Shown piece by piece: positions 2,944 through 40,382 of a DNA stretch of 64,000 nucleotides. Origin of the DNA: the human T2T-CHM13v2.0 reference genome, Homo sapiens; NCBI RefSeq assembly GCF_009914755.1, contig NC_060933.1; one strand, 5' to 3'. The notes under the pieces are model-generated. The model saw only the letters and a program-made list of their open reading frames with translations. It searched no databases and was not told where the DNA came from. The translations under genes were made by a program, and so were the position numbers. How positions within the stretch are numbered: position 1 is the stretch's first letter; each line of letters opens with the position of its first letter.

Positions 2944-5900
2944 TAAAATCTCTGTCATGTTCCTATGTACTAGGCTGGTAAATAGCCATAATTCTTGAAT
3001 TTTATTTTTAACTTTTCTACTCTTACTGTGTTTTAAAAGCAGTAATAGAAATAAAATCAGCACTTTAATTAGTGTTGTAGATATGTGTATCTATAAAAGT
3101 GAAAATGTTTAGGGGAAAAAAATGCTGCTTGTTTTCTTAGACACACAACATTACATGGAAACATTTGGTGATTGCAGTGGCTTCAGCATTTTAAGACTGG
3201 GCTACCAAAAACTGTACCTGATACTTAACCTGTTGGGCCTACCCAGGGACAGTGAAAGAGTCCAAATGGAGGCCCTCATACCATACACTGAAGTATTTAA
3301 AAGTTATAAATCCAATAAATAAATACACCTTAGTGATAACCTGAAAGACCAGGTTGGAATTTAAAATTCTCAGGCACTTTGGAGTTCATTGCTTTAACCA
3401 CGTGGGTCCTCACGTATTTTCTTGTACACACCCTAGTTCTTACTTCAAAGCTTCATCGAACCCCTACAGCTGCGCCCAGATCTAGACACACTCAAACCAG
3501 CAGCTTGATCTAACCCTGGGAGGCTTCAGGAAGAGGACTGAGACTGAGTAAACCCTGGAAGTGGGCCTGGGGTGTTAGGGCAGGGAATTTCAGGGTCCTG
3601 GGTACCCAGCTCATGGTGTAGAGGCCACGGACAAAGGCTGTGTGTGGGCATGCCCCCTTGGTCTTACAGGGTGTTGCTCAGCCAACTGAGGGCCAGGGCC
3701 CACGTCAGGGGCCCTTCTCCTTCTCGCCAGGCTGCTTGGTTTGTACATGATTTCATAAGCTATACACTTAAGAGGAAAGAAAGGGAACTTAGAACTGTTT
3801 TATCTTAAAATAATTCTTTGTTAAATAAATGTCAATAGTTTTAATCAAAATTCATCCAGGGAATTCTAAAATATAACATACATATACACATATATATATG
3901 TATATAAAATATTAAAGATAATCTCTAGGAACAGCTGCTTTGACACTGTGTTTTATAGTCTGTTTACGGATGTGTATGTTTTTAAAATACTCCATTAAAA
4001 ATCCGAAATGCGTATCCTGCCTATTGGAAGTGCTTGTGAAAGGAAGGTGGGGAGTTGGGGTACCATTTAAAGCTGAGCAAGGTAAAGATAGTGTGGAGCT
4101 TCGAAGTCAGGATTTTCTACACGACCCCACCCTCAATCTGGTCCACATAGTAAAGATTGGATGCTAGTGAAAATGCCAGGCAAGGGTTAGGCCTAAAAGG
4201 ATTAGTCATGAAGATTCGAGATTCTTAAACTAAAGATTATCACTGGGAACTAACTCGGGTCATGATTTCTCTTTTCATCTGCCTTTGTTCCTTTTATGCA
4301 CTTCCACAGTTGGACAGCTGGAAGTGCCACAGAAATATTTGAAGAGCCCTATTTAGTAGTTTACGTGAAAAGTCGTTGAATAATTCACATAACAAATGAT
4401 TAGACAAGCACTTGTCCATCTGACTGAATTATTCTACATGTTTGCCCAAGCAACAAAGGAGAACAGCGTTTCCTCCTACAGAGGGTATACAGTGGTGGTA
4501 TTGACCCATCTAGTTACTGGGTGGGTTTCAGTCTTTTGTTGACATTGTTGTTAATGAAAGCAGCCCAGACGAGCTGTGAGCAGCTGGGCTGGATAATTGT
4601 GAAGGATTCATGCTTGTTGCTGTTACCCCCAGTGTTTGCAGTGGGTTGTTTGCTTTGACTTTTGTTGAACTGTTGACAAAAGCATTAGATACAAATGGGA
4701 ACAAATAAAGTGGTGAGATGCCAGGAGGGCTTGGCAGGAGTAGTGGTTTTCTTTCTGACTGAAGTGGAGGATGTCGGAACGTATCTAGATGGGAAGTGGA
4801 AGGTGTATTCGGTGTGTGTGTTTAGCAGTTTACCCTTCCGATACCAAACTGGAAAATTTTGTTGCTTATGTACCTTGGCTCACAGAGGTGAGAGAATCAA
4901 GGAGGTCACCGTATCTTGTAACCCTCAAAAAGCCACGCTCTTTACCATGCCAGTCAGGTGGCTTGCAGGCCAAGAATGTTACAACAGAAATAGTTTCCAG
5001 ATTCCCCCTCCTCAACTTAAAACAAAATTTTAATAATAGAAGTATTTTGGACTGGGGAGATGACAGGCATGACGTTGAGGTGGGGAGGATTAAGAAGAAC
5101 AGTATATGCTAAAATAGTATAGCTAGCAAAATGGAAGTCATCTACTGGAACGCTTTTAATTTGCTTTAAACAAAATACTCTTTTGTATATTCAAATGGAG
5201 AGTAGCTCAGCTGTTGTGAAGCCAGAAAATTAATGGTATTTTTAGTGAAATAGCAAAAGCATGTCAACAATGTAGCTGCAGATGATAATGCTGGCATTTT
5301 ATTCATGAGGAATTATCAATGCAGGTTACTGGACAACATAGTGTGACTGAAAATGATTGAGTGTCGGAGAAGCCCGCCATCCTTCTGCTCGATTATTTCA
5401 TTTTGCATTTAGGCTTCCCCAGGCTTCATTTGTGCATGTATTTTCCCTATCACAAACCAAAATATAAAGTCTCCCTGGCTTAGGATTGTATGCATATTTT
5501 TTCTTCCTTTAAAATGTCTCCAAATGAAAGTTCCCCTTGAGTATTGACTCAGAAGCTGAGGAGTTCATTTTCAGTGCACACATGGTCAGTGGAGGTGGTT
5601 AGGCTTCAGAGATAGGTCCCTCTGAACAGTTTATCTAAATAGGTCTATGGCAGTTGTTTAAAAGCCAGCAAAACTCACCACCGTTTGATAGATGGAAATT
5701 GTCACAGAATATGCCTTCTCTGACAAGTAGAAGATTTGGAATAAGTAGTGAGGCCAGAAAAATGTTTAAAAAACATGGGCAAGAATAGGCAGAAACTGTA
5801 TTTAGGCAATTAAAATGTCTTTTGGAAGAGTGCGTTTCAGTGATAGTTGAAGAGTTACTAAAAATATATTTGAATAGTCAGGAAAATTAAGCTATGTCTT

Positions 5901-8900
5901 TTTTTTTGGCCTGCAGTTTTGGTCTGAGGCGCTCTGGGCACCATCACTCACATTGTTTTGTTGGTATTATTTCACCTAGTGTCTGAGCAAGGAAGAGGCT
6001 AAGGCTTCCTTTCAACATTCTGTTCTCCAACCTCATTTATTGGATTCCCCTCTGCTACTGGTGACAAAAAGAATGGATTATACCTTTGTGTAATTGTGCT
6101 TGTTCCAGTACTTCATGTGACCAAATCTAGGAAAGAATAGGAATTTACTGAGTTTGTTAAAAGTGGGAATGGCCCAATTGTTTTAGTCTTTGCAGCATCT
6201 TAATCCTAGAGAGCAGTGACCAGTGAGAAGAGGTCAGGATTTTCTCAGAAATGGGGGCATGCGTTACATGGCTGTGCTCCACTCAAAAAAGTTACATGAA
6301 TGCTCCCCACGTTTCAGCTCTCAGAAGATATTTTGCTTGTTTCAGTACTAGATGGTCAAATGGTAAAGGCCTAGATCTGAAGTTCATGAGGAAGAAACCC
6401 CTGAAATGACAGACACTGAATGGGGATAAATGCATCTATGTGATTAAGTAGTTGGTAGTTCTTCCAGGGTTTATTACTCAAGAGAGGAGGTAGGGAAATC
6501 GTGCAAGTAGAAAACTTGAAAAGACTCACCTTAGAGGGGATAGCTAAAGAGTAAAATGAGTAACAGTTAAATAAGAAAAAAAAAAGAAAGAAAAAAAAAC
6601 TTGAGAAGACAATAAGGCAAGAAGTTTATCACCATTAACAAGCCAGAAGAAAGAAAGAGACTACACCGACTTGACTCAGCATGACTCCAAAATTATGAGA
6701 CCCTGGGCAAAAGCACAACAAAAGGCTCACAAATGAAAAGAATGAGTTCAAGAGAAATTTACTTAGGCCACGTCAAAAAGATTGGTACACTGCACCCTCA
6801 GGCAGTGACCAGAGATGCAAGGGTAAGCATATTTTTGTAAAAGACCTGTTTTACAGACAGATATGCCTCAGTCTTTCCTCCCCCTCCTTTCCCACTGCTC
6901 AAGCAGGTATTCATGTTTGCTGTGCTTTTAAAGCTAAAATATCACCCTTGTTAACGGTGACTCAAGGTGACTCTACATACTCTGTTCAAACTGCATTTCT
7001 TAAGGTTGGGAAGCTGGTGTGTGTTGGGACCTGTCTACTTCTGTGCATGTGGCATGCTATGAACTCTAGACAGCCAGTAGGCAGGAAACAGTGTAGCAAT
7101 ACCAGCTAGACACTCATCCTCTGGAACCAGGTGGTCTGGGTTCAAATCATGCCTTATGCTATTTACCATCCTTGTGATTTTTGGCAGTCTTCTTCTCTAT
7201 CTGTGTAACATGGGAGTGGTAAAGTTGCCCAATATAGTAGGTCCTTATTGGTTTTTTTTTTGTTTGTTTTTTTAGTGTACAGTATGAGTAATTTGAAAAT
7301 GACCTGGTTGTGTTTATTCTTTGGAGGGTTAATATTTAAATTAACTTGCATTCCACAAACAAACACAAAACTAACAGCAGAAAGGAGCAAACTAGAAGTG
7401 TGCCAGGCCACAGGGAAATTATTGAGATTAAATTTTGCCTAAAAAAAATCTACAAAATGGATCTTGTACATGCAGATGGTTGAGAATTAACTTTAGCTGA
7501 TCCTAGCACATATTTAATTCCATTGGGGATTTTGTGTTTAGGGATAGTTCAACCTTGGCTGAGAATGTGACTTTTATGTATTTTACAGCAAAACTACTTG
7601 CTGCTCATAATGGATGAAATTGGAGACCAAAGAGGAAGAACCTTCTGGGTTCCTGTCAGTCTAAATCCTGATTTTAAAAGACATTCACCTGCCATGCTAG
7701 TGTTGTGTGCTTCTACTGGTAGGAAAAGCTAATAACTACCCTGACGAGCTGAACGAGTGGCCCGAGGACTGTGATCTCACAGTTTACCGTTTTTGCAGAG
7801 AGCCTCTTTTATTTTCATGTCAGATTATCTGTAAAATGGACTTCTCCCTCCAGTGTTGTAAACCATAACAATTCTGGCATTCCTCTAATTGTGTGGGGAG
7901 AGGGAGTATACCCAACAGATGCTTGTCGAGCAGGAGAGACTCTTGCTGCTTTTCATTATTTTACTACTCATACACCTAATCCCTGTCAATAAGGTTGGCT
8001 GTTTGGGGAAAGAACACACATCCCTGCACTATAATACTGATTTATTTGCAGCTTCTTTTCTTCAGACCGAGTTAACTGAGGAGTCTCACAAGGCAGTGAG
8101 TCAGCCTTGCTATGGACTTTGACAGAAGTATATCTGAAGGGAAGGGAGTGATTGCAGTATTCAGGGTGCTGGGGAACAGCAGACCTGGTTCAGCAAGGGG
8201 AGGTTAAGGACTATACTCCCACCCCTATTCAAGACATGAATGCCTCTCATAGTGTGATCCCTGGTTGCTTTGTTTTCAGTGAAGATTAGCCTCAGTTTCT
8301 CCGTTAAAAAAAAAAAAAAGTCAGTCTGGAAGATTTTATACGGCCTATGCTTTTTAGGCCATTGAAACAAAACACTTTTTTTTTTTTTTTTTTTTTTTTT
8401 TGCAGAGGTGGTGGTGGGGGAGGGGGGATGCCCTTTCAGTGATTAGTGCCCTGCTACATAGTTGTCTTCCAGAGCTACAATGTCAAGGAGCCCTCCTGTC
8501 CTGGGGAGAGAGGGTGCGCAGAATGGAAATTCAGCTTGCTCAAAGAGTCATACCAACAGGGCTCTAGCAGATTTCATATTTTCTTAATAAGAATGACAAA
8601 GGGGCCAGAGTCCTGGAAAGTAAGATACACACTGGGCATAAGATGGTGTTTGCCCTCATGGGAAGAGTGTGGTTTTCCCACAGGAGAATCCAGAATAACC
8701 AACCAACATGGCCAAGTTTCCCACTGTGGGCGGGCAGTGAGGGGCCCCTGAGCAGACAGGATTTCAACTTCCCACATGAGCCAGGGTGGGTCTGGCAAAG
8801 GTTTAGGAGATGTCTTTCAAGTGAGTCTGTTTTTCTACATGTTTTCTACCTCTGGATGTATAGAGTCAGCTTCCTGCATGACCTGTTTTTGTGAGACAGA

Positions 8901-10499
8901 GGACCTGGGAAACATGAGGCCATATTTGAGGCAGTTCATTCTTACCAACCGCCAGACCTTTGTTTTTAGAGAAGTGGAATCTTCACCAAAGGCCCAAGAA
9001 GCCTTTGTGGGGTCAGCTGTGCTTGAGAATTCTTGAATCTTTGTTACTCTTTATCACCTACCTGAGATGCCACTTTTGCTTGCTTAGCTCAGGTTTGGAA
9101 TTTGATTTAAGAGGGATTCACATTTCTCTGTTTATCAGAACTTAGCATCAATTGTGTTTCTTTGTAGAGATGTATGTTACTTAAAAGATAAGGGAAAGGA
9201 GCATGTGTTTCTGTAGCTCAGAAAACCCTAAGAGGAAGGACCAGATAAAGTGGAAACTTTCTACAGCGACAATTAGAGTTCTGTTAAAGAAACAAGTGCA
9301 AGTGAGGGCAGGTGGAGCATAGAAAACTCTCAGCACAGGGACTCAATTAAAAATGCTTTTAAAATGTAATTCCAATCAATGTGGATAGTCTTAGAACATT
9401 GCAAGATGTGTGAAAACATGCTTTAAATGCCAGCAACCAGTGAAAAGGGCACGGTTTTAGAAACCCTGCTATAAATTATGTGCCTTTGGCTTTCAGGAAC
9501 GTGGAGGATACATCGCTGAAATATTCAGAATAAATATCAGAGAGAATTGTACAGTCTTTTCATTCTGCAAGGAATGAAATTTTTAAAGAGCTAGTTGTGT
9601 TTGGCGTAAGATCCTGAAATTTTTTTATAGTGTCACAACATTTGTTTTGGGAGATGTACAAATCAAATCTGATTATAACAAATATTATAACAAAAATATC
9701 CCTCTAACCAAACAATTTCTAGACCCCAACCAGTGGTCCACTTATTTAAAACAATATTGAATGTAACCCAATTCCATTAAGGCAAAATAATGTGAGTTAG
9801 TCTTGGAGTTTTTCTTTCATGAGTTCCTTACCTTTTGGAATTCATATAGGCAATTGGCAGTGATTCCAAAAATGTTTATTTACCTTTGGAACTATATGAT
9901 TTTAAAAGTGTAGTTTATCTTTCAAATTATTTTCTGCATAGTTCCATTTTACAGTATCTGTTTTTGTGGGAAGAGACTACTCCAAATGAAATTCTGGTTT
10001 CTGATTGGTTTCCTCCTTGCCTATTTTAGTTTCTTATACTTTTATACCTAAAAAGTTTTTCTTGCATTTAACAGAGTAATTTCCCCCTAAAAACTATTGA
10101 AGTAGTAGCATAATTTACATGTTACTTCTTGTCAACCACCAAAACCACAGGGTACAACCTGATCAAATACACTAAATATGAAACAAAACACAGGCTCAAA
10201 ATAGAGTAGATGGCCATTGCTGCATGTGAGTAGTTTTTGCCCCGACCCCTGGTCAGTTGATTCCAGTCACGCCTCTCCATGCCTTCCTGGGGGGTGATTT
10301 TGTAGGGCCGTTCTGCTTAATGTTTCCTGACTCAACCTGTCCCTGGGTTCAGAACCCAGGGATCTTCTTCCTCCTAATTACCCTTGCCCTCTTTAGTCCT
10401 CCCAGGCTTCAGGCTTCCCTCCAAGTGGGGATCCCTTCCCAGATAAAAGAGTTGAGAAGTGGCTTATTGCTTTTCTCAATGTTTAAGGAAAACCACTAG

Positions 10500-10800
10500 A
10501 AGGCTGCTTAGTATAGAGTGAAAACCATGTGCTTTGTAGCCGTTGCCATGGGCTCTGGAGACAGCTCTGCCCCTGCTAGCTTTATGACCTTGGACATGAA
10601 TAATAATTAGCACTTTGGGTGCATATACTCTGTGCTGTCATCAGAACAGCCCATTAAGGTGGAGTTTGCTATTATCTCCGTGTTGCAGATGAGGAAAGTG
10701 AGACACAGTGAGACTAAGTAAGTTGCCTCTGGTTCACCCAGAACATAAGTGATGAGCTGACTAGGATTCAGTTAGTCTTCAGAGCCCATGCTCATTATCT
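10500..10800. mobile_element. MIR relics (others at about 7100, 13020, 13400, 20100, 34420, 36430, 48270, 54750, 59480 and 60600)
   Basis: MIR core motifs, e.g. gcagatgaggaaagtgagacacag...taagtaagttgcc. Confidence 0.65.
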
Positions 10801-11608
10801 CTATTCTAGGGTCAGTTTTAAACCCTCATCTGGATGTACCTTACTTGATGTAGGCAAAATGCAAAGATTAGAGATAGGAGGAGCCCCAGCAAGGGGCCTG
10901 CCACGTAGGAAAATACTTAAGATTATAGGAGCTTCCTCCTTTTCCTGTCAGATCAGCAAAAATCCAAAGTATCGATTTTGTATATGTGTATTTGTAGTAG
11001 TGCTGTTGTGATGTGTTCTTTTCATGTGACTTGTCTGTCATATGTCCTTAGAGTGTAAACTTGTCACGTGGGGCGGGATGTTTTAATACTTCACAATTTT
11101 TAGGACCTTCAAAGTGGCGGTTCAAGACCATTTCACTTTGGAGCATTTTGGAATGTCATCACACAGTCCCGTGCGTGTTTTTGTGTTAAATTTCTCATAT
11201 CCAACAGATGTATCCTCCTCTTCTACCAGTTCAGAATCTGCTATCTGATTAATTAAAATGTATGCAGATGAAAAATCTGACAAAGATTTTAACTTGTAGC
11301 CTCATCAGTTTGCTGGAGGTTAATAGGAATATTCTTGCAGTAACAGAATCCCCCAATTTGGATTTTCTAGCTTGATGTCATTTTTATTTCATGAAGAAAA
11401 AAGGGTAGTTTTTGTTTGGTTGGTTTTTTTTATAACCACTAACCAGATGTAGTGATAATACTTTATAACTTAAGTGTCTATAATTTTTAAATCTCTTTGT
11501 CCTTTCTGCCCTTCCCTAATTGATGAACAAGCACTTACACTTGCAATGTTTTGGCTCTTGTTTCCTATCAGCTGACTTTTGGAGATTTACAGCATGGATT
11601 AAGTAGGG

Positions 11609-12962
11609 ACCACTTGCTTATCCTACTTTTCTTTGTTTTCCTTTCCAGTATTCCATTCCCTTTTTCCCTGCCATCTCCTCCTGACCCTCCAGAAAAGGAC
11701 ATCTTAGTACCTTAGTTGGGTGGCAGTCACAGAAGAAAACTTGATTCCAGTGCTATATCAAATTGTTGGGGCAGCCTAAGGAATTAAGTTGAGGGCTGCA
11801 TATCATAGTGATTTATACTTTAAGAATACCAAATTGGGGCCCATGGCTTTACAAAGGCATTTTCTTATATTAATTTGTGAATCTACATGAAAACAATTAA
11901 GACATGGAAATTAAATTTCATTTATTCTTCATTTAACCAAGCACTTTAAAACAAACATAAAATCCTGAAATCAGTATATCCTTAAAATCCAGAATGTGTA
12001 GGCATTAACTATTTGTGACTGGTGGCTTAATCATTTTCAAGGTTCTTCTTTGATTCACTAAGCACTGTCACTGCCACTGTGGTTGGTCATTTTGCTTCTC
12101 TTTTAAACACAGTCCTCAGCTTTACATTAGGGAGCTAAAGTGAGGTGAGAGATAATGTCTTAGAATCTTATACCAGTTAAGTATCCCTTATCCGAAATGC
12201 TTGGGACTAGAAGTGTTTTGGATTTTGGTTTTTTTCAGATTTGGGAATATTTGCATTATACTCACTGGTTGAGCATCCAAAATCTGAAAAATCTGAAATT
12301 TTAAATGCACAATGAACATTTCCCTTGAGCGTCAGGTTGGTGCTCCAAAAGTTTTGGACTTTGGATTTCAGATTTTCAGGTGTGGGCTGCTCAACCTGTA
12401 CTGGCCACTTTGAACTGATTCGATAACAGGCATCACACAAGATGCTTGAAGCTAGATTGCCCTGGTAGAGTGACAATAAGGGATAATGACTTTACACTCG
12501 TTTTATACTACTGCCATATTTGATGATCTGTTAATTGCCAGTCATGTTTGTTTAGATATTGTTTAGTCACTGTGCCTCCCCAAGGCCTTTCTGGCAAAGG
12601 GCACAACAAATAGAGTAAATAAATTATTGCTTTTGTTACTACTGAAACTATTTTGGCTCAATACTCTAAATTAATTGTTTTCATGTAGATTCACAAATTA
12701 ATATAAGAAAATGCCTTTATGAAGCCATGGGCCCCAATTTGGTATTCTTAAAGTATAAATCACTATGATATGCAGCCCTCAACTTAATTCCTTAGGCTGC
12801 CCCAACAATTTGATATAACACTGGAATCAAGTTTTCTTCTGTGACTGCCACCCAACTAAGGTACTAAGATGTCCTTTTCTGGAGGGTCAGGAGGAGATGG
12901 CAGGGAAAAAGGGAATGGAATACTGGAAAGGAAAACAAAGAAAAGTAGGATATGCAAGTGGT
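11609..12962. repeat. Long inverted repeat: 292-bp arms (11609-11900 and 12671-12962), 770-bp spacer
   Basis: Base-by-base reverse-complement comparison gives 288/292 identity with no indels. Confidence 0.97.
12173..12398 (+). mobile_element. Tigger4a/MER46A-like non-autonomous TcMar-Tigger element
   Basis: cagttaagtatcccttatccgaaatgcttggg...gctcaacctg with TA dinucleotides at both ends. Confidence 0.85.
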
Positions 12963-14987
12963 ATTGTATTTTGTTTTTTAAATAAAATATGTGGAAAGAG
13001 AGAAAAGCCAACCAGAAATATGGTAGAAAGAGCACTGGACTAGATTCAGGGGAGGCGTGGCCATCGTCTAGCCTTATCTATGACGTCTATTCTCTCTGAG
13101 CCTCAGTTTCCTCTACTGCATAACCACTTAGGTTCTTCTGATGTATGATGGACCCTATGATTTATTTTACTTGATATTTAATAGCAGAGCTTTATTATTT
13201 TAAAAAATCCTCAAATTATTAGTTTGAGCTAAATGTTATTCTATATAGATATTCTCAGTGAAATGTTGGAGCTGCCTCAGACATGTAAATCAAAGATGTG
13301 TTCAGTATTTTAATTTCTTTCATGTGTTTGAAGATGCATTTCCCATGCATCCATGGTTTTAGCCATGAATAAAACATAGTATTATGGAAGGTATAATGGT
13401 ATAAAATCCAGAAGGATAGATCTGGGCTCAAATCGCAGACTAGAGATAGATGACTTAGCAAGTTACTCAGTTTTCCCCAACTAGATTCTTTTTAATAGTA
13501 ACAGTAGCAGCAATAATATCTATCTTATTGGGTTATTAAAAGATTAAATGAGACAGTGTGTGTAATTGCAGAGTGCCTGGCATTTTACTCAATTCTCAGT
13601 AAATGTATCATGTATTCAAAGTAGTAATTTTGGCTAATTCAAAAACTATTTGCATGCTAAAAGTTGTAGTGCCTAGTATTAATTTAGTTCGTGGCCTCTG
13701 TATGATTTTCTGTCCTTTTGAAGATGTATCCATGACAGAAGTAATAATAAGCAGACTGCTAGAGCATCCTGAGCATGTGTCATGGGCCAGGCATTGGGCT
13801 GTGTGCCTTATGTATGTTGTCTCATTCTAAGATTTCCTTTTCTTTTTCTTCAAAATGTTAACTCTACTTAGTTGAAAGTATTGGACTATGATAACAGCAG
13901 AGACAAGATGCCGTGGTAGAAACTTTTTTAATTTTTTTGAATTGGTAATCATGGGTCCTGATAACTTGTTATAGTTGTTTCTTCATTTTTTTTTTTTTTG
14001 TAAAACAATTCTGCGTTTTGAATTGTGTATAATCTGAGATGGATTCAATTTTTTTTCTTTTGTGGAAACAAACTTAATTGAGCTTATACTATTCCAGAAG
14101 TTTTAAGATGTGGCATCTTCACAACTATCCTGTTTGTGAATTTTGTAGGCTTGTCATTGTTTTCACATCTATAAAAATGTGGTCAATTTGTGGATGCTCT
14201 TTTACTTATAGAATCAGAAGTGGGTGGTGTAAGAGATTCTACACATTTATCAAACTATGGAACTTTAGAAGGAAGAGTACTGAAAGGTTAGCCTTACCAG
14301 GTACTTCTAGCGTAATTTCTCTCTTCTATTTTGAATGCTTCTTTATGTATAAAGATGAATATCAAATTCAGTAGCTTGTTAACAAAGCAACTAGTGAGTG
14401 ATGTCATTGCTAAACAAATTCAGTACACTGTTTTATACGTATGCAGTCTCTGTCTCAGTTAAAGAAATTAGTAGATATGTGAACTATAAATATATTAAAT
14501 GAGGCAGAAAAAAATCATGCATAGCCTCATCAAGCATCTAGATGCATAGGTCCACAGATAATGATCTTCATCAAGTTATGTACGTGAATCTGCCTGTTCA
14601 ATAATTAGTACCATTCTTTTGTCATAATCCTGACTTTATAATGAACCTAATGCAGTAAGGCCAAAAAACTTTGTAGATGTTAATCTATGTACATTGTATT
14701 TGAGTAAATGTCCTTGTTTATCAGCAGACTTTCATTGCAAGCTTGAATTGGAAACCACATACAGACCTTTCCCTAATCCTAACTTCATCTTTTTTTTTAA
14801 ATCAGAGAAAAATAATGAATTTATTCTATCAATAATTCTTAAAATAGCTTGGTAATAACTATCATTTATAAAGATTACCACTGTATCTAAGAAAAAACAA
14901 TACACAGTCAGTAATTCTCATCAAAATCACTTGAACGTTGCTTTAGGTTTCAGTGGCACTCTAGTTTAAGGAAGTACTTTATTATTG

Positions 14988-17512
<2,525 letters not shown>

Positions 17513-32685: not shown

Positions 32686-35600
32686 CTAAAGAATAACTTT
32701 AATATTTTAATGAAGGCCCTTAAGACCAATCAGTTAAGCGATAATTGAAAACTGTTTAGCCCTTTTGTGGTGATATGAAGAAGACCAGAGTTCCTGATTA
32801 GCGACCTTAAAACTTATTAGGCAGCCTTCCTTTAAATTGATATATTGTCATTTCTTTCTTTGTTCCTGTTGTATTACCCTCAGACATTGTATAGAGTATA
32901 TTTGCATACAGAATACATAAGAATATATATGAGAATCTGTGGAGTTAACACTCTTTGGAAAAAAAAGTTTAGCCTTTCAAATAGATTAAAGCAGTTTACT
33001 GGAAAAAAAAAATAGCAACATGAAAAGACTTTCTTTTCTAATAAATGTTAATAGTTACTAAAATGAAGATTCTGGTCCATTAAGATACAGCTTGCCAAGT
33101 CCTAAAGCTTAGTAACTTATTTCTCTGAGCTGTTACCCTACTTCAGCTTTGTCAAAGCAGCTGTTATGCTTGTGTTGATATTTTCATTCAAAAACAGAGC
33201 ACAGTGCAGGGATAGGTATAAAGCCAGTGCACCTTCCGTGAACATCCAGGAAAGAGATTTTTGCCGACCCTCTCCACTTTTGTTTTTAGGGCAGTCAAAC
33301 TCATGTACCACATGAGATTTGCCAGTGAGACTTAGTAACATTGGTTATAAAGCAGTAGGTGAATGAGTGGTTTATGATATGTTTTACAGGTCATATACTG
33401 AAAAAAATAATTCCAGAAGAAAGTGGCCAGTGCATGTAACTGTAATTTACAGAGTTAGCATACAAGATTTATAGAATTTATATTAAGGAGAGCGAGAATT
33501 CTTGCTGGAGAACAAATGGACACAGAAATGTTAGACTTTGCAAACTTTGAGGAGGTCCATTGGATTGAAAAGTGCGAAATGACTTTGGGGTGATAGGTAG
33601 TTTAAACGATGAACACAATACAAAGTTGTATGCAGTTGGCAATTTTTATTACAATTTCTGTTAGACTGTTAATACCATGCCATCTCTAATGATCAGGAGA
33701 GGGATTACTTGATTAATTCAGCTTGTACTTTGGATTCTTCTCTCCATCAGTGGTGAGGGGTTGTACTTGTTCCAACTCATTCATCTACTTTCTTCCTTGT
33801 GTGGCCCAACACTTGCACCACATGCAGACTAGCTTTCAAGAGAGGGCAACTAAGCTCCCTACATAAGAATCAACCCTGTGTCTTTGGCATCAAAGCATCA
33901 TGTCCCAGCAGCTCAGTTTGTCAGCTAAAGTAACTGTGTTCAATGAAATTTCTGGGGTGGAGCCAATAGCTTTATTCCAGGAAGAGGAAGCAACAGTGAA
34001 GAAACCCCCGAGAGGACATTAAGATAATGTTCTAATTTAAAATCAATTTTATTGATATCTTATAAATTATTAGAGCGTTTTATACTGACCAAGCAATACA
34101 TAATGCTGAGGCCATGAAAACAGAACATGAATGAATTAATATTGAAGTGCTGTATTTTCTACTACACATGAAGAAAAAAATATGTAATACTTTTGTATCC
34201 TAAGTATTTTGACTCAAGGAGCCCTACTGAAAAACAAGGTGTATATTTCATTCTTCAAGGTGTGTATTAATATTTTATTCAAGACATTTCATGTGTTTCT
34301 GTACTTAGTGGGTTAAATACTTGTTGAATGAGTCCATAAGCAGACAAAAAATATGCGGTTGTTTCCACATTTGCCAAAAGGGAATAGCTGTCTATGGGGG
34401 CTTACTAGTACTAGATGCTAGGTTGAATTCTTCTTTATCCTTATGGCAACTTACAAGGAAGTGCTGCTAACACCCTCGTCTTACCTACTGGAGAAATGGA
34501 AGCTTAAAGAGGTTCATGAATTTTCCCAAGGTCACATAGCAAGTGTTACAGCCTGGTCTTGAACCCAAGGCTGTCTGACTTTTATACCTGTAGCATAACC
34601 ATTGTAGACACTGCCTCTCTTCTGTTATTCTTCTGACTGTTGGTTCCTCTGGTTTGATAATATTTTGATTACCTGCAAAAGAAATTTACCTTGATCCAGG
34701 TTTCTCTTACCAGTAGAGAAGCAGAGACAAAAACAATAGAACATTTTAAAGAATATATTGTTCATGAAATGTTACAGAAGGTGAAACATTTGTTAAGAAT
34801 AGATTCATTACTTTATATGGAGATTATATTAAATCTTCTTTTAACAAGGGCAGGGCTTTAGAAAGTCCCAGTCATTTTTGAAGGTGAGTTTTGATTTATG
34901 TTAATTTGAAAAAAGCAAGTTCTGTGAGAGTTTTATACAGATTGTGCTTTTAATGACTTCCTTAATCAAGCAGGTTATAAAAAAGAAAAACCTCTTACTG
35001 TGATGAGCAGTAAACTGACACCAGTGACTGGCTCAGTCAGAGCTCTACTATATTCAAGTTTTTTACCACCAGCATGCTATAAATTTTAAGTTCATTTACA
35101 TAAATTTACATGTGTTATGTGTTAGTATGTGAGACTTGTGCATTTTGACCAAGTAATTTTCATTTTAAAGGTTTTATATTTACTTTTTTCCAATTGAGGA
35201 TTATTTCTTATATATATATACATATATATATATATATGTATATCCTGGTGGTTTCCCTGTAAATGAGATAATAATATGTTAAAATGTTTTATCAGTTATA
35301 AAGAGCTCAATGAATGGGAAAATAAACATTTTGTGTAATTCTGTACAATAAAATCCAAGCAGAACTAGCTGGGTTATGGTACAACAGTAGTTTGATGTAC
35401 GTAGGTTTATTCAGGATATTACTTTCCAAACTTACTCAAAGTAGTTCCAAAAAAACAGAAATACAGTGCTTTGTGGTCTGGTGAACATGATCAACTCTTT
35501 GGATGATTCATGACTATAGAGTCACCAGTGTTCATTTTTATTTTTGACATGGGTCTTTTGCTTTTCTAAGGGGTTGCAGAGGAAAATATGATTGAGGACT

Positions 35601-38600
35601 TTGGTTATGGCATCAGTAAAGGATCTACAGGGGCCTTCTTCAGCTTTCTGTCTTCTGTGCCTCCACCCCTGTCCCCATCACCAAAAACAAACTCAACTTG
35701 AATCGTCCCTGACTCTGATTAATGTTTGAGAATTCCTATAGTGACTGAACTATAGTTAAGAGTAACTATAATTTATCGTCTAAACTTGGCCATTTTTGAG
35801 AGTGAAGGGAAGTCTGGACAACAGGTGTAGAAAGGGCAAACCGGGACTTGCAATTACCCTTGACATATTTTAGTGGTACCTTCTGACTCCTCATTATCCC
35901 ATTTATCTGTTTGAAAACTGATTTACCCTTTTGTACCGTGTGGATACGATTTTTGAAGGCCATAGCTGATGAGCAAACAAGCCATAACGAATGAGTTTTA
36001 GGCTGCTTGATCATGGTTTCCATGCGACCTTTAGCATGTTCTTTCTGGTTGTTATCGTCTATGGGCAGGGAAGTCTAAGCACTGCACCTGTGTGAATGGA
36101 AAGCAAAATTGGCATGGTGTGCATTTGAAATCAAATTAGAAAGTCCATTGTGGAGATGGTATTTGCAGTCTTGCCTCTGTGCAGTATTGAACCAAAACCT
36201 TATCGTGATTGTTGAAAGGAGAAAAGTTTTGGTGAATAGTAGCATATTAAAACCCTATAATTATGGGGCATCAGAATATCTATGCTGGGGGAAGTCCTAC
36301 ACAAATGTCTAGAAAAGACCTAACATAAGGTTTAAAATAGAAGATCCACACTAGGTCACCATCCCAATCTCTAAAGTAAGTAGAATCAACTGGAGTCCAG
36401 TATACAGTGATAGGACTAAGTTGCACTGTTGAGGGGCTAGGCTATGTGCCTGGGACTGCGCGTTGTACTTTATGTGGATTATTTTTCTTGGTCTTCAAAG
36501 CAGCCCGTGGGGCTGAGAATGGTGTGTTGTTACCCCAGACTAAAGAGAGGCTGAGACTAAGCAACATCCCTTACGGCTATTAAGTGAAGACTCTAGACTC
36601 ACACCAGGCAGTCTGACTCCAGAGAGATGCTCTTGCCTGCTATTAAAATCTGTGCTCCCTGTTATTAAAATTAGCTAATTATAACAACAGCATCTTCTTT
36701 TGGAGGGGGAAGTTACTTTATAGAAGTCTTTCTCATACATTGTCATCTTTGATCTTGAGGTGGCAGAGGAGTAAAGGTGGAGGGGTGGGGCCTTCCCTTT
36801 CAAGTTGCTGGAGGTGTCAGTTTTCCATCTGACTTGGTCAACAGCCCTAGTAAAGTCTGGGATGGTCTTTAATCTAGGAACTAGAATCTTCTCATAGTGA
36901 AATTAGAACCTGATTATAGCTTTTTAAAGCTTACCTTTTGCTACCAAAGCAATTGGGGTTTCCATGTAATAAGTCTTTTAATCCTTTAGTATTTTTTTCT
37001 TGGTTTCTCCTTGTTTTCCTGCTCTTTTTCTTAAACAGATCTACCCTGTTCTTTTTAAATATCCCAGCATAAGTGTTTACTTTTAAAATCCAGAGCTTTA
37101 CTAAACATTCACATTCAGGGTATTTTGCTTTCTCTGGATCAGCCATTGCTTGTGACCGTGACTCTCCAATCATAACAGATTTGCTGAGATACACACACAC
37201 ATACACACACACACGCACACTCAAACTGTAGTGAGAAAGACTTGTGTTTAATCCTTCTAAATTTGTAGATTTATAGGGTCACAATGCAGCTTCAGTAAGT
37301 TTCTTATGTAGTAAACTTGAGAAATATCTAAATTGAGCTTTTAAAATAATAATAGAGAAATAAAAAATAATAAAATAAAAAGCTTTTCTAGTAAAAGCAT
37401 GACTTTATCGGTATTTATTTAATTCCTCTTATTCACATGCCTAGCAAAGATCCAAGTGGCATTCCTGTGGCAGAATGGTGGACTTACAAGATTCATGATG
37501 AGAGTCTGTGCCAAGTCCAATTTGATTCCAGAGTAATTATGTTATTAGAACATTGCTGATTGCCCCAGTGCCCACTGTGCAGCTTAACCTTTAAATGCTA
37601 GTGATAATTAACTACTTTATCATTCTACCAAGAAACTCCAACATGTAACTCTGTTCTACAGTCAACTTCAAAAATACAACGCTGCCTGCAAAACCGGAAA
37701 CAGCTAGCTTAAGAAAAATATAAAGTATTTGGTTGTACATATGAGCCAATAAATGAACATAAAATCTAAATCTAAATAGGCATTACCTTTTAGTATTTTT
37801 AAGAAATTGTTTTGTTTAGAAATTTTTCCTCTTAAACAATGTGGAAATAACTTTCAATAGAATATAGCAGAATCAGAGAATTGTTAATAAAAGATATATA
37901 TACTCCATTTTTCTTCTTTTTGTAAAATATGAAATTAGCCAGATTTAGTGCATCTAAAGGTAAGTAAAGGAGCAAAGGTGAGGAAGGGGCTGAATTGCCA
38001 TATTACCGATTCCAAGGGCACCACAACACAAATCTTACTCTAGTGAATGGTCTCCCATGGAATTGTTCATCCTAGTGATGCTCAGAAAAGGAATGTATCA
38101 TAAGAGATTTGGAGTGAGATTGAGGCGTGCAGAGGGGATGTTCAGCCATTTGTGTTGAGAAATATTTCTGGGCAGTTCCCTTCTGCTCATGATGCTAGGT
38201 GCCCCACCCTCAGGGAACCCACAGCCTAAAGTGGGAAGTGGCCTTGTAAACACAGCAATAAATTTGTTGTGAGTGCTTTACTCATTGGAGGAACAAAATG
38301 TTAAGGGAACAAAGAGGAATGAATGATTAATTCTGCCTGACAGCATCTGAGGAAGCTTTGAAAGGTGACATTAGAGCTGATTCTTAAGGATAGTGGGGGA
38401 TTTCAAAAGATAGATCTTGAGAAAATAGTCATTGCCATAAGCCAGGAAAAAAGGCTACAGGTGCAACGAAAATACACAGAGCCCAGGGGAACACTGGCTT
38501 ATAGTGCTGATGTAGGATACAAGGCCAGGACTCTGGATTGGGGTGTGGAGTGAGGACTTTGGAAAACAGCCATACTCAGAAATTTGGAATTTTTTTCCCC

Positions 38601-40382
38601 CTGTGAACAGTAGGAAACTGTCCTTTTAAAAGAGGAGTTAAAACAGGCTGAACCTCTCTTTGGGAAGTATGAATTCCAGAAGTGAGGTGGATAGACTGGA
38701 GAGGGGAAAACTAGAAACGGGATTGAGGCATGAAGTATGGTAGATAGTAACCCACAGATGATGATTGCATGCATGGTTTCAGTGGTCATGAAAACCTACT
38801 GAGTGCATTGGGTTGTGTGAAAGCAAAGCAGAAGTGTTGACCCAAGTCTCATGGCTTGGGAGTGAGGTTTGGAACTCAGCAGAGATACACAAAAGTCAAG
38901 AAGTAGTCCACTTTAAAAAATCGTTTGGCTCGTAATGTTTTGTGTCAATCTTCAGCCTTACTGAATAATGCCTGCAGTCTTTTCTGCCACTAAGTTTAAG
39001 GCTGAACGTTTGATAGGGCTAGGGCTAGAGTATTCATATAAAACCTCAAGAGGGGCTGGCACAGCAGGGACGGATTTAGAGGTCCCCAGCCCGCCCAGTG
39101 GGCACCCACTCACTGGTCCCATCTCTCTCCCCCACCAAACTCCCACCTGCACATCTTTGGAGCTTGTAATAAAGAGTTGCCATCACCACAGGTATGAAGA
39201 AAGACCATCAATCTTCTTAACAATGTGCTTTGGAAGTTCAGAAATGCCACAAAAGAGATTGTGACATTAAGGCTCAGTGGAAATAAAATGGAACATAGAC
39301 CCAAAAGTTCTGGGTAACACACTTTCTCTCATAGTTAATTAAAAGGGCCTCGTAAATGTTGTATGTTTTTATAAACATCAGTTATTACCAACAGACTAAG
39401 ATAAAGCAAAAAAAAAAACCCGTTCAAAGAGTTAGTCTTATATGAAATAAATTTATAAATGAGGAAGAGCTTTCCTGACCAGTTTTCTGAATTGATTTGC
39501 ATGCCAGACAGAGACGTTCCAGTGGTGATTGTTCTTCCTATAACTTTTTTTCCATAGAGATTTTCAGATATTCTTTCTACTACTCTCCAAGATCAGCCCT
39601 TTGTTACCCTGGGTTAGGGTCATTCACACTTGGGAGCCCTGCCCTGGTGCCCTGCCAAGGGACTGTGTTACTCAGGTTTTTGCCATTCACCACTCAGCAG
39701 CATAGCGCAGCCCTCAGTCCAGCTCCCGCTCTCCCACCTCACCTGCATTTAGATCTTTTCTTTGGTCTGTCTGAAGCTTAGTCACTAGGCAGTTGTTAAG
39801 ATTGTTCCAGTTTTCATTGGCACTTTTTTCACTTCTTCATCCATGATTTTAAGCTCTCATATTATCTAAATGTGCCCAATAACCACCTGACCTTCATGGC
39901 AGATAGAGTCATTCTCTGCTTCAGGTCTTGTCACCCACGTCTCTTGTGTGTATAGGAGACTTCTCCAGTTGAGAGCTCCTTGAAAGCAGAGGTGAAGCAT
40001 ACAGGCTGAGCCTAAGTGTGGTCCCAAGAGGCATGGAGCATCTTTCTCCATTCCCTGGCCCCAGTGGCATTCCTAGGTTTCCAGACATTGAAAGGTGTGG
40101 GTTCATGAAAACTATAGGAGTGAGAAAGGAATAATACGCATTTCTGCAGGTGGTGTTTTTCCTGCCACTCTGTATCTTCCAGGCCCTAACATATGGCGCT
40201 GAGCAAAACTTCATAAATATGACCTATATGTCACATGACTGCCATCTTTGGTTGCTCAAATCCCCCAAAATTACTTTCCCCCCTTTTTTTTTCATTGACT
40301 TACTAATTACCTCTTAAAAGCTCTACTTTATAGTTTTTCTATAGAAGCTTGAAATGCTGGCTTCCCATTAGCCAGCAAACTT

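What the first reader, a model, noticed from the sequence alone, without database searches (positions are those of the whole stretch)
11609..12962. Near-perfect 292-bp inverted duplication of apparently unique intronic DNA
Seen: 11609-11900 is the reverse complement of 12671-12962, with 4 substitutions and no indels. The 770-bp spacer contains a Tigger4a fossil. I do not recognise the arms as any transposon, and they are far more similar to each other than the old repeats nearby are to their consensus, implying a recent template-switch duplication or ongoing gene conversion. Inference: because it lies in a transcribed TLE4 intron, the pre-mRNA would form a ~290-bp non-Alu dsRNA stem. The DNA is also a substrate for cruciform formation or for non-allelic homologous recombination that flips the spacer (a micro-inversion polymorphism).
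Basis: partly seen in the sequence, partly recalled or inferred. Interest (0 to 1): 0.85.

Follow-up and report, generated by a model that had tools for sequence, protein, structure and literature searches.

The report
Small inverted duplication in TLE4 intron
Two nearly identical 292-base stretches of otherwise unique DNA face each other 770 bases apart inside an intron of TLE4; this is a real but small inverted duplication of a known kind, which should fold into a long RNA hairpin and has no demonstrated function.

Summary
Window 11609-11900 is the reverse complement of 12671-12962: 292 nt, 4 substitutions, no indels, 770-nt spacer. The arms and their flanks have no other copy in CHM13, and no target-site duplication is present, so this is not a transposon with terminal inverted repeats. 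The spacer does carry an old interspersed repeat.

In 264 kb of chr9 scanned, this is the only one of 8 inverted pairs of 150 nt or more above 85% identity.

My best reading is a single local copy-in-reverse event (template switch or templated repair). Taken at face value the divergence dates it to about 7-14 Myr, with a range of 2-35. It now sits as a passenger in the 50.7-kb intron 8 of TLE4.

The sense RNA folds arm on arm, so a long ADAR-substrate hairpin is plausible. It would be removed with the intron. Cruciform extrusion is unlikely with a 770-bp spacer. Flipping of the spacer by recombination is possible but untested.

No ape genomes, reads or pangenome were available, so origin, polarity and polymorphism remain open. 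This is a new member of a known, already catalogued class.

The parts
11609..11900 (.). Left arm of the inverted duplication (292 nt, 38% G+C, no CpG)
   Evidence: The only other copy in CHM13 is the right arm.
11901..12670 (.). Spacer, 770 nt. It is the loop of the RNA hairpin and the segment that would flip if the arms recombined.
   Evidence: Its T-over-A and G-over-C skews (+0.092, +0.018) have the same sign as the intron background (+0.072, +0.033).
12167..12405 (.). Old interspersed repeat inside the spacer, palindromic and MITE-like.
   Evidence: 2,638 candidates, 40 scored, non-self matches 76-83% identical and covering query positions 8-246. Internal short inverted repeats I2, I3 and I6. 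A sub-threshold Rfam mir-1290 match at 12327-12392 (31.2 bits against a gathering score of 82).
12671..12962 (.). Right arm, the reverse complement of the left arm with 4 substitutions
   Evidence: The only other copy in CHM13 is the left arm.
11609..12962 (+). Predicted RNA hairpin in the TLE4 sense pre-mRNA: a 292-position stem (288 Watson-Crick pairs, 1 G-U, 3 single mismatches) with a 770-nt loop
   Evidence: MFE -733.7 kcal/mol for 11589-12982, with the arms paired end to end in both the MFE and the centroid structure. Mismatch types are read.

Best explanation
This is a genuine, single-locus, small inverted segmental duplication of unique intronic DNA. One of the two 292-bp arms is the original. 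The other was written in reverse orientation 770 bp away in one event: a local template switch during replication, or repair synthesis that copied the nearby stretch from the opposite strand and then returned. That is the geometry of the published 'four-point' template-switch model, on a larger scale. The event happened in the ape lineage, millions of years ago if the 4 differences arose at the ordinary rate. The copy has since drifted as a neutral passenger in intron 8 of TLE4. Shown: the structure, its uniqueness, the lack of transposon hallmarks, its exceptional identity for the region, and the thermodynamic ability of the sense RNA to fold into a 292-position stem. Inferred: the mechanism of origin, the age, and the consequences. 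The expected consequences are that the pre-mRNA forms a long nuclear double-stranded RNA, is edited by ADAR, and is discarded with the intron. The arms could also occasionally recombine, flipping the spacer or homogenising each other.
For: Exact 292-nt inverted match with sharp edges, 4 substitutions and no indels. No third copy of the arms or flanks in CHM13: 2 of 2 candidates were self and partner in each. No matching direct repeat at the outer edges of the unit or around either arm (junction print). There were 0 nhmmer hits at E<=1 for 10800-13800 against 261 kb of local sequence, while other 3-kb tiles of the same intron gave up to 52 hits (9 of 14 tiles had at least 1). It is 1 of 8 local inverted pairs of 150 nt or more above 85% identity in 264 kb. 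The two polarities of the structure correspond to the 3-2-1-4 and 1-4-3-2 patterns, which the great-ape template-switch study says are the majority patterns and generate single inverted repeats (passages of PMC7954356). The spacer's strand skew matches the surrounding intron: combined +0.110 against a background mean of +0.106 and sd 0.12 over 49 windows. By my arithmetic on those numbers, that favours 'spacer never inverted' about 5:1 over 'spacer inverted at the origin'. The RNA fold pairs the arms end to end. The loop length of 770 nt lies within the range of edited human double-stranded RNAs (median 2,025 nt overall and 509 nt for non-repetitive ones; Table 1 of PMC11838218). Both arms are in one intron in 51 of 51 transcripts.
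Against: No outgroup genome was available, so the ancestral state, the parent arm and the microhomology at the switch points are all unseen. The sharp edges show no microhomology as they stand. Published short-range template switches act over tens to hundreds of nucleotides; a 292-nt copy with a 770-nt jump is larger. The skew test is weak, because 16% of control windows have a negative combined skew. The skews of the arms conflict with each other and give no polarity. The age assumes no gene conversion (which would make the event older) and no error-prone synthesis at the event (which would make it younger). No expression, editing or population data were available, so every functional consequence is inference.
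Confidence: 0.6

Rival explanations
1. By-product of an inversion. A small inversion of the 770-bp segment arose from a staggered break at one end, and filling in the 292-nt overhangs left an inverted duplication flanking the inverted segment. On this view the repeat is the scar of an inversion, not its substrate.
For: The layout (arm, unique segment, inverted arm) is what the staggered-break model predicts. That model is discussed for Drosophila inversions in papers I saw only in a search listing (PMC7584159, PMC3355041).
Against: The spacer's strand skew has the sign and size of the surrounding intron. By my arithmetic this gives about 5:1 odds against a recent inversion of the spacer, which is weak. 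A 292-nt stagger is long. No human example was found in the passages I read.
Confidence: 0.15
2. A much older inverted duplication whose arms are kept nearly identical by gene conversion or by repeated recombination that also flips the spacer. On this view the low divergence does not date the origin.
For: Validated human inversions are mediated by inverted repeats as short as 140 bp (PMC13629690). [quoted passage not shown] The arms share identical tracts of 134 and 96 nt.
Against: Repeat length is the main driver of recurrence, and most recurrent inversions have repeats of 10 kb or more; 292 bp is near the bottom of the range. Nothing in the sequence itself shows conversion. No population or outgroup data were available.
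Confidence: 0.2
3. A non-autonomous DNA transposon with 292-bp terminal inverted repeats.
For: It has inverted termini around an internal segment, and a DNA-transposon-like fossil lies in the spacer.
Against: There is no other copy of the arms or of the whole unit in the genome. There is no target-site duplication. The spacer repeat ends more than 260 nt from either arm. 98.6% arm identity does not fit the age of human DNA transposons (that age is recalled, not tested).
Confidence: 0.02
4. An assembly artefact (a fold-back chimera) in T2T-CHM13.
For: None from the calls. It could not be excluded directly, because reads and other assemblies were off.
Against: The arms differ at 4 sites and are separated by 770 nt of unique sequence containing an old repeat, unlike a fold-back read chimera. 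Inverted-repeat totals are similar in GRCh37, GRCh38 and CHM13, which is general rather than locus-specific evidence.
Confidence: 0.03

Closest known systems
Long, nearly perfect inverted duplicated sequences in human pre-mRNAs (Barak et al. 2020, PMC7006430; dsRNAscan preprint, PMC11838218)
   Same: Two inverted copies lie in one pre-mRNA, both intronic, with 98.6% identity and a predicted long hairpin that would be an ADAR substrate. Barak et al. count 197 such human structures in RefSeq transcripts. dsRNAscan counts 2,018 genome-wide, of which 88% are intergenic.
   Different: At 292 bp it is 8 bp under both studies' cut-off of more than 300 bp. The arms are unique DNA, whereas most of the 2,018 form between inverted LINEs. 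I could not check whether this locus is in their tables, because supplements are closed; 'TLE4' occurs 0 times in both main texts.
Four-point short-range template-switch mutations (Walker et al. 2021, PMC7954356; Loytynoja and Goldman 2017, PMC5453318, the latter seen in a search listing only)
   Same: A reverse-complement copy of a nearby stretch is inserted without loss of sequence. The layout equals the 3-2-1-4 or 1-4-3-2 pattern that makes a single inverted repeat.
   Different: The scale differs. Those events are sought within tens to hundreds of nucleotides; here the copy is 292 nt and the jump 770 nt. The ancestral state was not seen.
Inverted-repeat-flanked (NAHR) human inversion polymorphisms (HsInv set; PMC13629690; preprint 10.1101/2021.12.20.472354)
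   Same: A unique segment is flanked by highly similar inverted repeats whose length lies within the validated range of 140 bp to 134 kb.
   Different: No evidence of two orientations is available here. The repeats are far shorter than those of recurrent inversions. 'TLE4' and '9q21' occur 0 times in the main texts searched.
Inverted Alu pairs, the usual source of edited intronic double-stranded RNA
   Same: Similar arm length (about 300 nt), intronic, with loops of hundreds to thousands of nucleotides.
   Different: Alu pairs are typically about 80-85% paired (median base-pairing 84.7% for edited double-stranded RNAs; local inverted pairs 78-84.6%). This stem is 98.6% matched and is not a repeat family.
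Segmental duplications and genome-wide inverted-repeat maps (Fernandez-Luna et al. 2024, PMC11794170)
   Same: An intrachromosomal inverted pair of at least 200 bp and at least 80% identity, so it fits that map's parameters. The map has 627,791 inverted pairs in T2T-CHM13, with a median identity of 84.3%.
   Different: It is shorter than the 1 kb required by the classical segmental-duplication definition quoted there. It lies in the top identity range, where pairs are usually longer than 1 kb.

Membership tests
DNA transposon / MITE with terminal inverted repeats | Multiple dispersed copies in the genome | tested here: not met
   The arm query found only itself and its partner (2 of 2 candidates). 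The same held for the arm-plus-flank queries.
DNA transposon / MITE with terminal inverted repeats | Target-site duplication directly outside the inverted termini | tested here: not met
   The outer flanks do not match, and there is no TA at the outer edges (junction print).
Segmental duplication (classical definition, as quoted in PMC11794170) | Length of at least 1 kb | tested here: not met
   The arms are 292 nt, and identity stops sharply at both ends.
Segmental duplication (classical definition, as quoted in PMC11794170) | Identity of at least 90% and not made only of interspersed repeats | tested here: met
   98.6% identity. No other genomic copy. 0 nhmmer hits against 261 kb of local sequence.
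Long, nearly perfect inverted duplicated sequence in a pre-mRNA (Barak 2020 / dsRNAscan cut-offs) | Identity or pairing above 96% | tested here: met
   288 of 292 positions match, and the arms pair end to end in the fold.
Long, nearly perfect inverted duplicated sequence in a pre-mRNA (Barak 2020 / dsRNAscan cut-offs) | Stem longer than 300 bp | tested here: not met
   292 bp. It falls 8 bp short, so it works like a member but is formally under the cut-off.
Long, nearly perfect inverted duplicated sequence in a pre-mRNA (Barak 2020 / dsRNAscan cut-offs) | Both arms in the same transcript | tested here: met
   Both arms lie in one intron in 51 of 51 annotated TLE4 transcripts.
Four-point template-switch event | Reverse-complement copy of a nearby stretch in the descendant | tested here: met
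   The pattern is equivalent to 3-2-1-4 or 1-4-3-2.
Four-point template-switch event | Ancestral sequence lacks the copy and is otherwise collinear | not testable with these tools
   No primate genomes were available. Only a weak skew argument supports collinearity of the spacer.
Inverted-repeat-mediated polymorphic inversion | Flanking inverted repeats of sufficient length and identity | tested here: met
   292 bp at 98.6%. The validated range starts at 140 bp.
Inverted-repeat-mediated polymorphic inversion | Both orientations of the spacer seen in the population | not testable with these tools
   Reads, assemblies and the pangenome were off. No mention was found in the papers searched.
Cruciform-prone palindrome or fragile inverted repeat | Short spacer (a few to tens of bp) | tested here: not met
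   The spacer is 770 bp. Widening the spacer from 12 to 100 bp cut repeat-induced recombination 300-fold in yeast duplex DNA.

The most novel reading that the evidence does not exclude
An ape-specific, near-perfect 292-bp hairpin that is transcribed whenever TLE4 is transcribed could be a physiologically relevant double-stranded RNA. It might be one of the few unique-sequence substrates that ADAR1 must edit, a Dicer-processed hairpin-RNA locus, or an MDA5/PKR trigger when intron 8 is retained or lariats accumulate. In addition, its arms may toggle the 770-bp spacer between orientations in human populations.
Probability: 0.07. Interest if true: 0.6.

Novelty: new member of a known kind. Interest (0 to 1): 0.3.

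Why it matters
If the dating holds, this is a clean natural example of a large, local copy-in-reverse mutation in unique DNA, and it could be resolved to the base by comparing ape genomes. It is also a rare kind of RNA. Long, almost perfectly paired, non-repeat stems in expressed human genes number in the low hundreds (197 in RefSeq pre-mRNAs above 300 bp and 96%), and they are the candidates discussed as the dangerous self double-stranded RNAs that ADAR1 exists to disarm. Because this one is intronic, it is most likely harmless. Its practical value is as a test locus for editing, for duplex-mapping methods and for small-inversion genotyping, not as a new biological principle.

Tried and rejected
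Transposon reading: rejected.

Polarising the event from old repeats that span a junction: tried in two ways. Whole-genome queries of each flank plus arm found only self and partner. An nhmmer search of 10800-13800 against 261 kb of local sequence gave 0 hits; the positive control was tiles of the same intron, which gave up to 52 hits. Nothing spans any junction, so this gave no polarity.

Strand-skew test: the spacer gave weak support for 'not inverted', and the arms were uninformative.

Short repeats near the junctions: only chance-level matches. Examples are a 33-nt pair at 73% (11539/12206) and a CATGGA hexamer on both sides of the left arm that is not in register with the junction. I draw nothing from them.

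Rfam: there was no family match in the arms, only a sub-threshold mir-1290 match in the spacer repeat.

Literature:
- 'TLE4' + 'inversion' + 'inverted repeat': 0 papers.
- 'TLE4' + 'A-to-I' + 'dsRNA' + 'intron': 2 papers, judged unrelated from title and abstract and not read.
- In PMC3961182, 'staggered' refers to restriction enzymes, so it was of no use here.
- PMC8755829 was seen as outline and abstract only; its microinversions are 17-33 nt, a different scale.
- Supplementary tables that may list this locus were closed: dsRNAscan Table S5, Barak Table S8, the Fernandez-Luna data sets and the inversion call sets.

A wider rarity scan (1.2 Mb) was planned, but only 200 kb was obtained.

Full report
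**Observation.** The repeat finder gives arms 11609-11900 and 12671-12962, 292 nt, 99% complementary, 770 nt apart. Aligning the left arm with the reverse complement of the right arm, each with 50 nt of flank, shows ungapped identity that begins and ends abruptly at those coordinates. The four differences are at arm positions 10 (T/A), 145 (C/T), 242 (T/C) and 244 (C/T), leaving identical tracts of 9, 134, 96, 1 and 48 nt. The chance probability of such a match is about 5e-152 per placement. It is the only inverted pair of 120 nt or more within 5 kb in the whole 64-kb window.

**What the arms are not.** A whole-genome search of CHM13 with the left arm found two places only, itself and the right arm (2 of 2 first-look candidates). 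Queries of 10900-12165 and 12405-13700 again found only self and the partner arm. The tool warns that very common words are skipped and that closed regions are not shown, so this means 'unique at BLAST sensitivity'.

The sequences just outside the unit, and just outside each arm, share no direct repeat, and there is no TA at the edges. A transposon with 292-bp terminal inverted repeats is therefore rejected.

An nhmmer search of 10800-13800 against 261 kb of local sequence (20 ten-kb pieces of chr9 plus the rest of the window) gave 0 hits at E<=1. The same procedure on 14 three-kb tiles of the intron gave between 0 and 52 hits (9 of 14 tiles had at least one). The two tiles that each hold one arm had one hit each, presumably the partner arm, though I did not print it. 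So the arms and flanks are not recognisable pieces of the abundant repeat families either.

**The spacer.** Window about 12167-12405 belongs to an interspersed family. There were 2,638 first-look candidates; 40 were scored, and the 39 that are not the query itself are 76-83% identical. It has internal short inverted repeats and a sub-threshold match to the mir-1290 model (31.2 bits against a gathering score of 82), as expected of a palindromic DNA-transposon fossil. I could not verify the name Tigger4a. RefSeq's soft-mask table lists no repeat of 100 bases or more between 8000 and 14974, so that mask misses this old element.

**How unusual it is.** In 264,000 bases (the window plus 200 kb from chr9:91.25-91.64 Mb), a minus-strand self-BLAST found 11 inverted pairs with spacers under 10 kb. 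Of these, 8 had 150 aligned bases or more. Seven of the 8 are 78.0-84.6% identical, and only this one exceeds 85%, at 98.6%.

Published maps agree that the kind is rare but known:
- Fernandez-Luna et al. list 627,791 inverted pairs of at least 200 bp and at least 80% identity in T2T-CHM13, with a median identity of 84.3% (PMC11794170, sections read).
- The dsRNAscan preprint predicts 5,134,754 double-stranded RNAs. Of these, 2,018 are over 300 bp and over 96% paired, 88% of those are intergenic, and most lie between inverted LINEs (PMC11838218, passages).
- Barak et al. count 197 inverted duplicated sequences over 300 bp and over 96% identity in human RefSeq transcripts. Of these, 20 are expressed above FPKM 0.01 and 7 of those are heavily edited (PMC7006430, passages).

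This stem is 8 bp under those length cut-offs. 'TLE4' does not occur in those main texts. Their supplementary tables, which may hold the locus, were closed.

**Age.** Four differences in 292 give a Jukes-Cantor distance of 0.0138, with an exact Poisson 95% interval of 1.1-10.2 events. With recalled rates of 1e-9 and 0.5e-9 per base per year, and two diverging copies, that is 6.9 Myr (1.9-17.5) or 13.8 Myr (3.7-35). The arms have no CpG, so hypermutable sites do not inflate the count. Positions 242 and 244 may be one multi-nucleotide event. Gene conversion would make the true age older, and error-prone synthesis at the event would make it younger. 'Recent' therefore means ape-lineage, not necessarily human-specific.

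**Origin.** The layout (arm, unique spacer, inverted arm, no loss of sequence visible) is the single-inverted-repeat outcome of the four-point template-switch model. With the right arm as the copy it is the 3-2-1-4 pattern. With the left arm as the copy it is 1-4-3-2. Those are the two majority patterns in great-ape genomes (PMC7954356, passages), although those events are sought over tens to hundreds of nucleotides, so this would be a large example.

The main rival is an inversion with staggered breaks, which leaves inverted duplications around an inverted segment. I tested it indirectly. The TLE4 intron has T over A (+0.072) and G over C (+0.033) on the sense strand, and the spacer has +0.092 and +0.018. 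Its combined skew of +0.110 sits on the mean of 49 control windows (+0.106, sd 0.12). By my arithmetic, that favours a spacer that has long been in its present orientation by about 5 to 1. This is weak, since 16% of control windows are negative. The arms' skews conflict and do not tell which arm is the parent. Without outgroup genomes, neither polarity, microhomology nor conversion can be settled.

**RNA consequence.** Both arms lie in the same intron in 51 of 51 annotated TLE4 transcripts. In the select transcript NM_007005.6 this is intron 8 (50,675 nt), and from the intron coordinates the unit starts 21,152 nt after the intron's start and ends 28,169 nt before its end. Folding 11589-12982 as RNA pairs the arms end to end in both the MFE (-733.7 kcal/mol) and the centroid.

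Reading the mismatches on the sense strand gives U-U, C-A, a U-G wobble and C-A. That makes 288 Watson-Crick pairs plus one wobble in 292 positions. The 770-nt loop is well within the loops of edited human double-stranded RNAs (median 2,025 nt, or 509 nt for non-repetitive ones).

The expected fate, from established knowledge of ADAR and of intron turnover, is nuclear editing and removal with the intron. Barak et al. find that such structures are tolerated in pre-mRNA but almost absent from mRNA. No expression or editing data could be consulted.

**DNA consequences.** Cruciform extrusion from duplex DNA is unlikely. In yeast, widening an inverted-Alu spacer from 12 to 100 bp cut recombination 300-fold, and from 12 to 200 bp cut gross rearrangements about 20-fold. 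Widely spaced repeats interact mainly within long single-stranded DNA (PMC10164571, passages).

Recombination between the arms that flips the spacer is possible in principle. Validated human inversions have flanking repeats from 140 bp to 134 kb (PMC13629690), and 132 of 183 resolved balanced inversions have repeats of at least 200 bp. However, repeat length drives recurrence, and most recurrent cases have 10 kb or more (preprint 10.1101/2021.12.20.472354). No paper links TLE4 with such an inversion: 0 papers held 'TLE4', 'inversion' and 'inverted repeat' together, and 'TLE4' had 0 occurrences in the inversion papers' main texts.

**Verdict.** The cruciform idea is weak, and the inversion and editing ideas are untested. 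It is a new member of a known, already mapped class, and most likely a neutral scar of one local copy-in-reverse event in the ape lineage. Interest is modest.

Noticed in passing
window 12327-12392: A sub-threshold Rfam match to the mir-1290 precursor family (31.2 bits, gathering score 82, E 6e-4) lies inside the old spacer repeat. It probably reflects shared descent of that microRNA family from the same kind of palindromic transposon, not a gene here.
   Followed up: no
window 8000-14974: RefSeq's soft-mask table lists no repeat of 100 bases or more in this stretch, although 12167-12405 belongs to a family with at least 2,638 candidate copies. The mask misses old, diverged elements.
   Followed up: partly
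window 11850 and 11852 (partners 12721 and 12719): Two of the four arm differences lie two bases apart (TAC against CAT), which suggests one multi-nucleotide mutation rather than two independent events. That would lower the event count used for dating from 4 to 3.
   Followed up: no
window 3001-15000 and 33001-39000: Large parts of TLE4 intron 8 are poor in recognisable repeats. Five of 14 three-kb tiles gave 0 nhmmer hits against 261 kb of local sequence, and the two tiles holding the arms gave 1 hit each, presumably the partner arm. This is unusual for a human intron and may reflect constraint around this developmental gene.
   Followed up: no
window 11539-11571 and 12206-12238: A 33-nt direct repeat at 73% identity sharing the 9-mer TTTTGGCTC-like core. 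One copy is upstream of the left arm and the other is inside the spacer repeat. I judge it a chance match.
   Followed up: no
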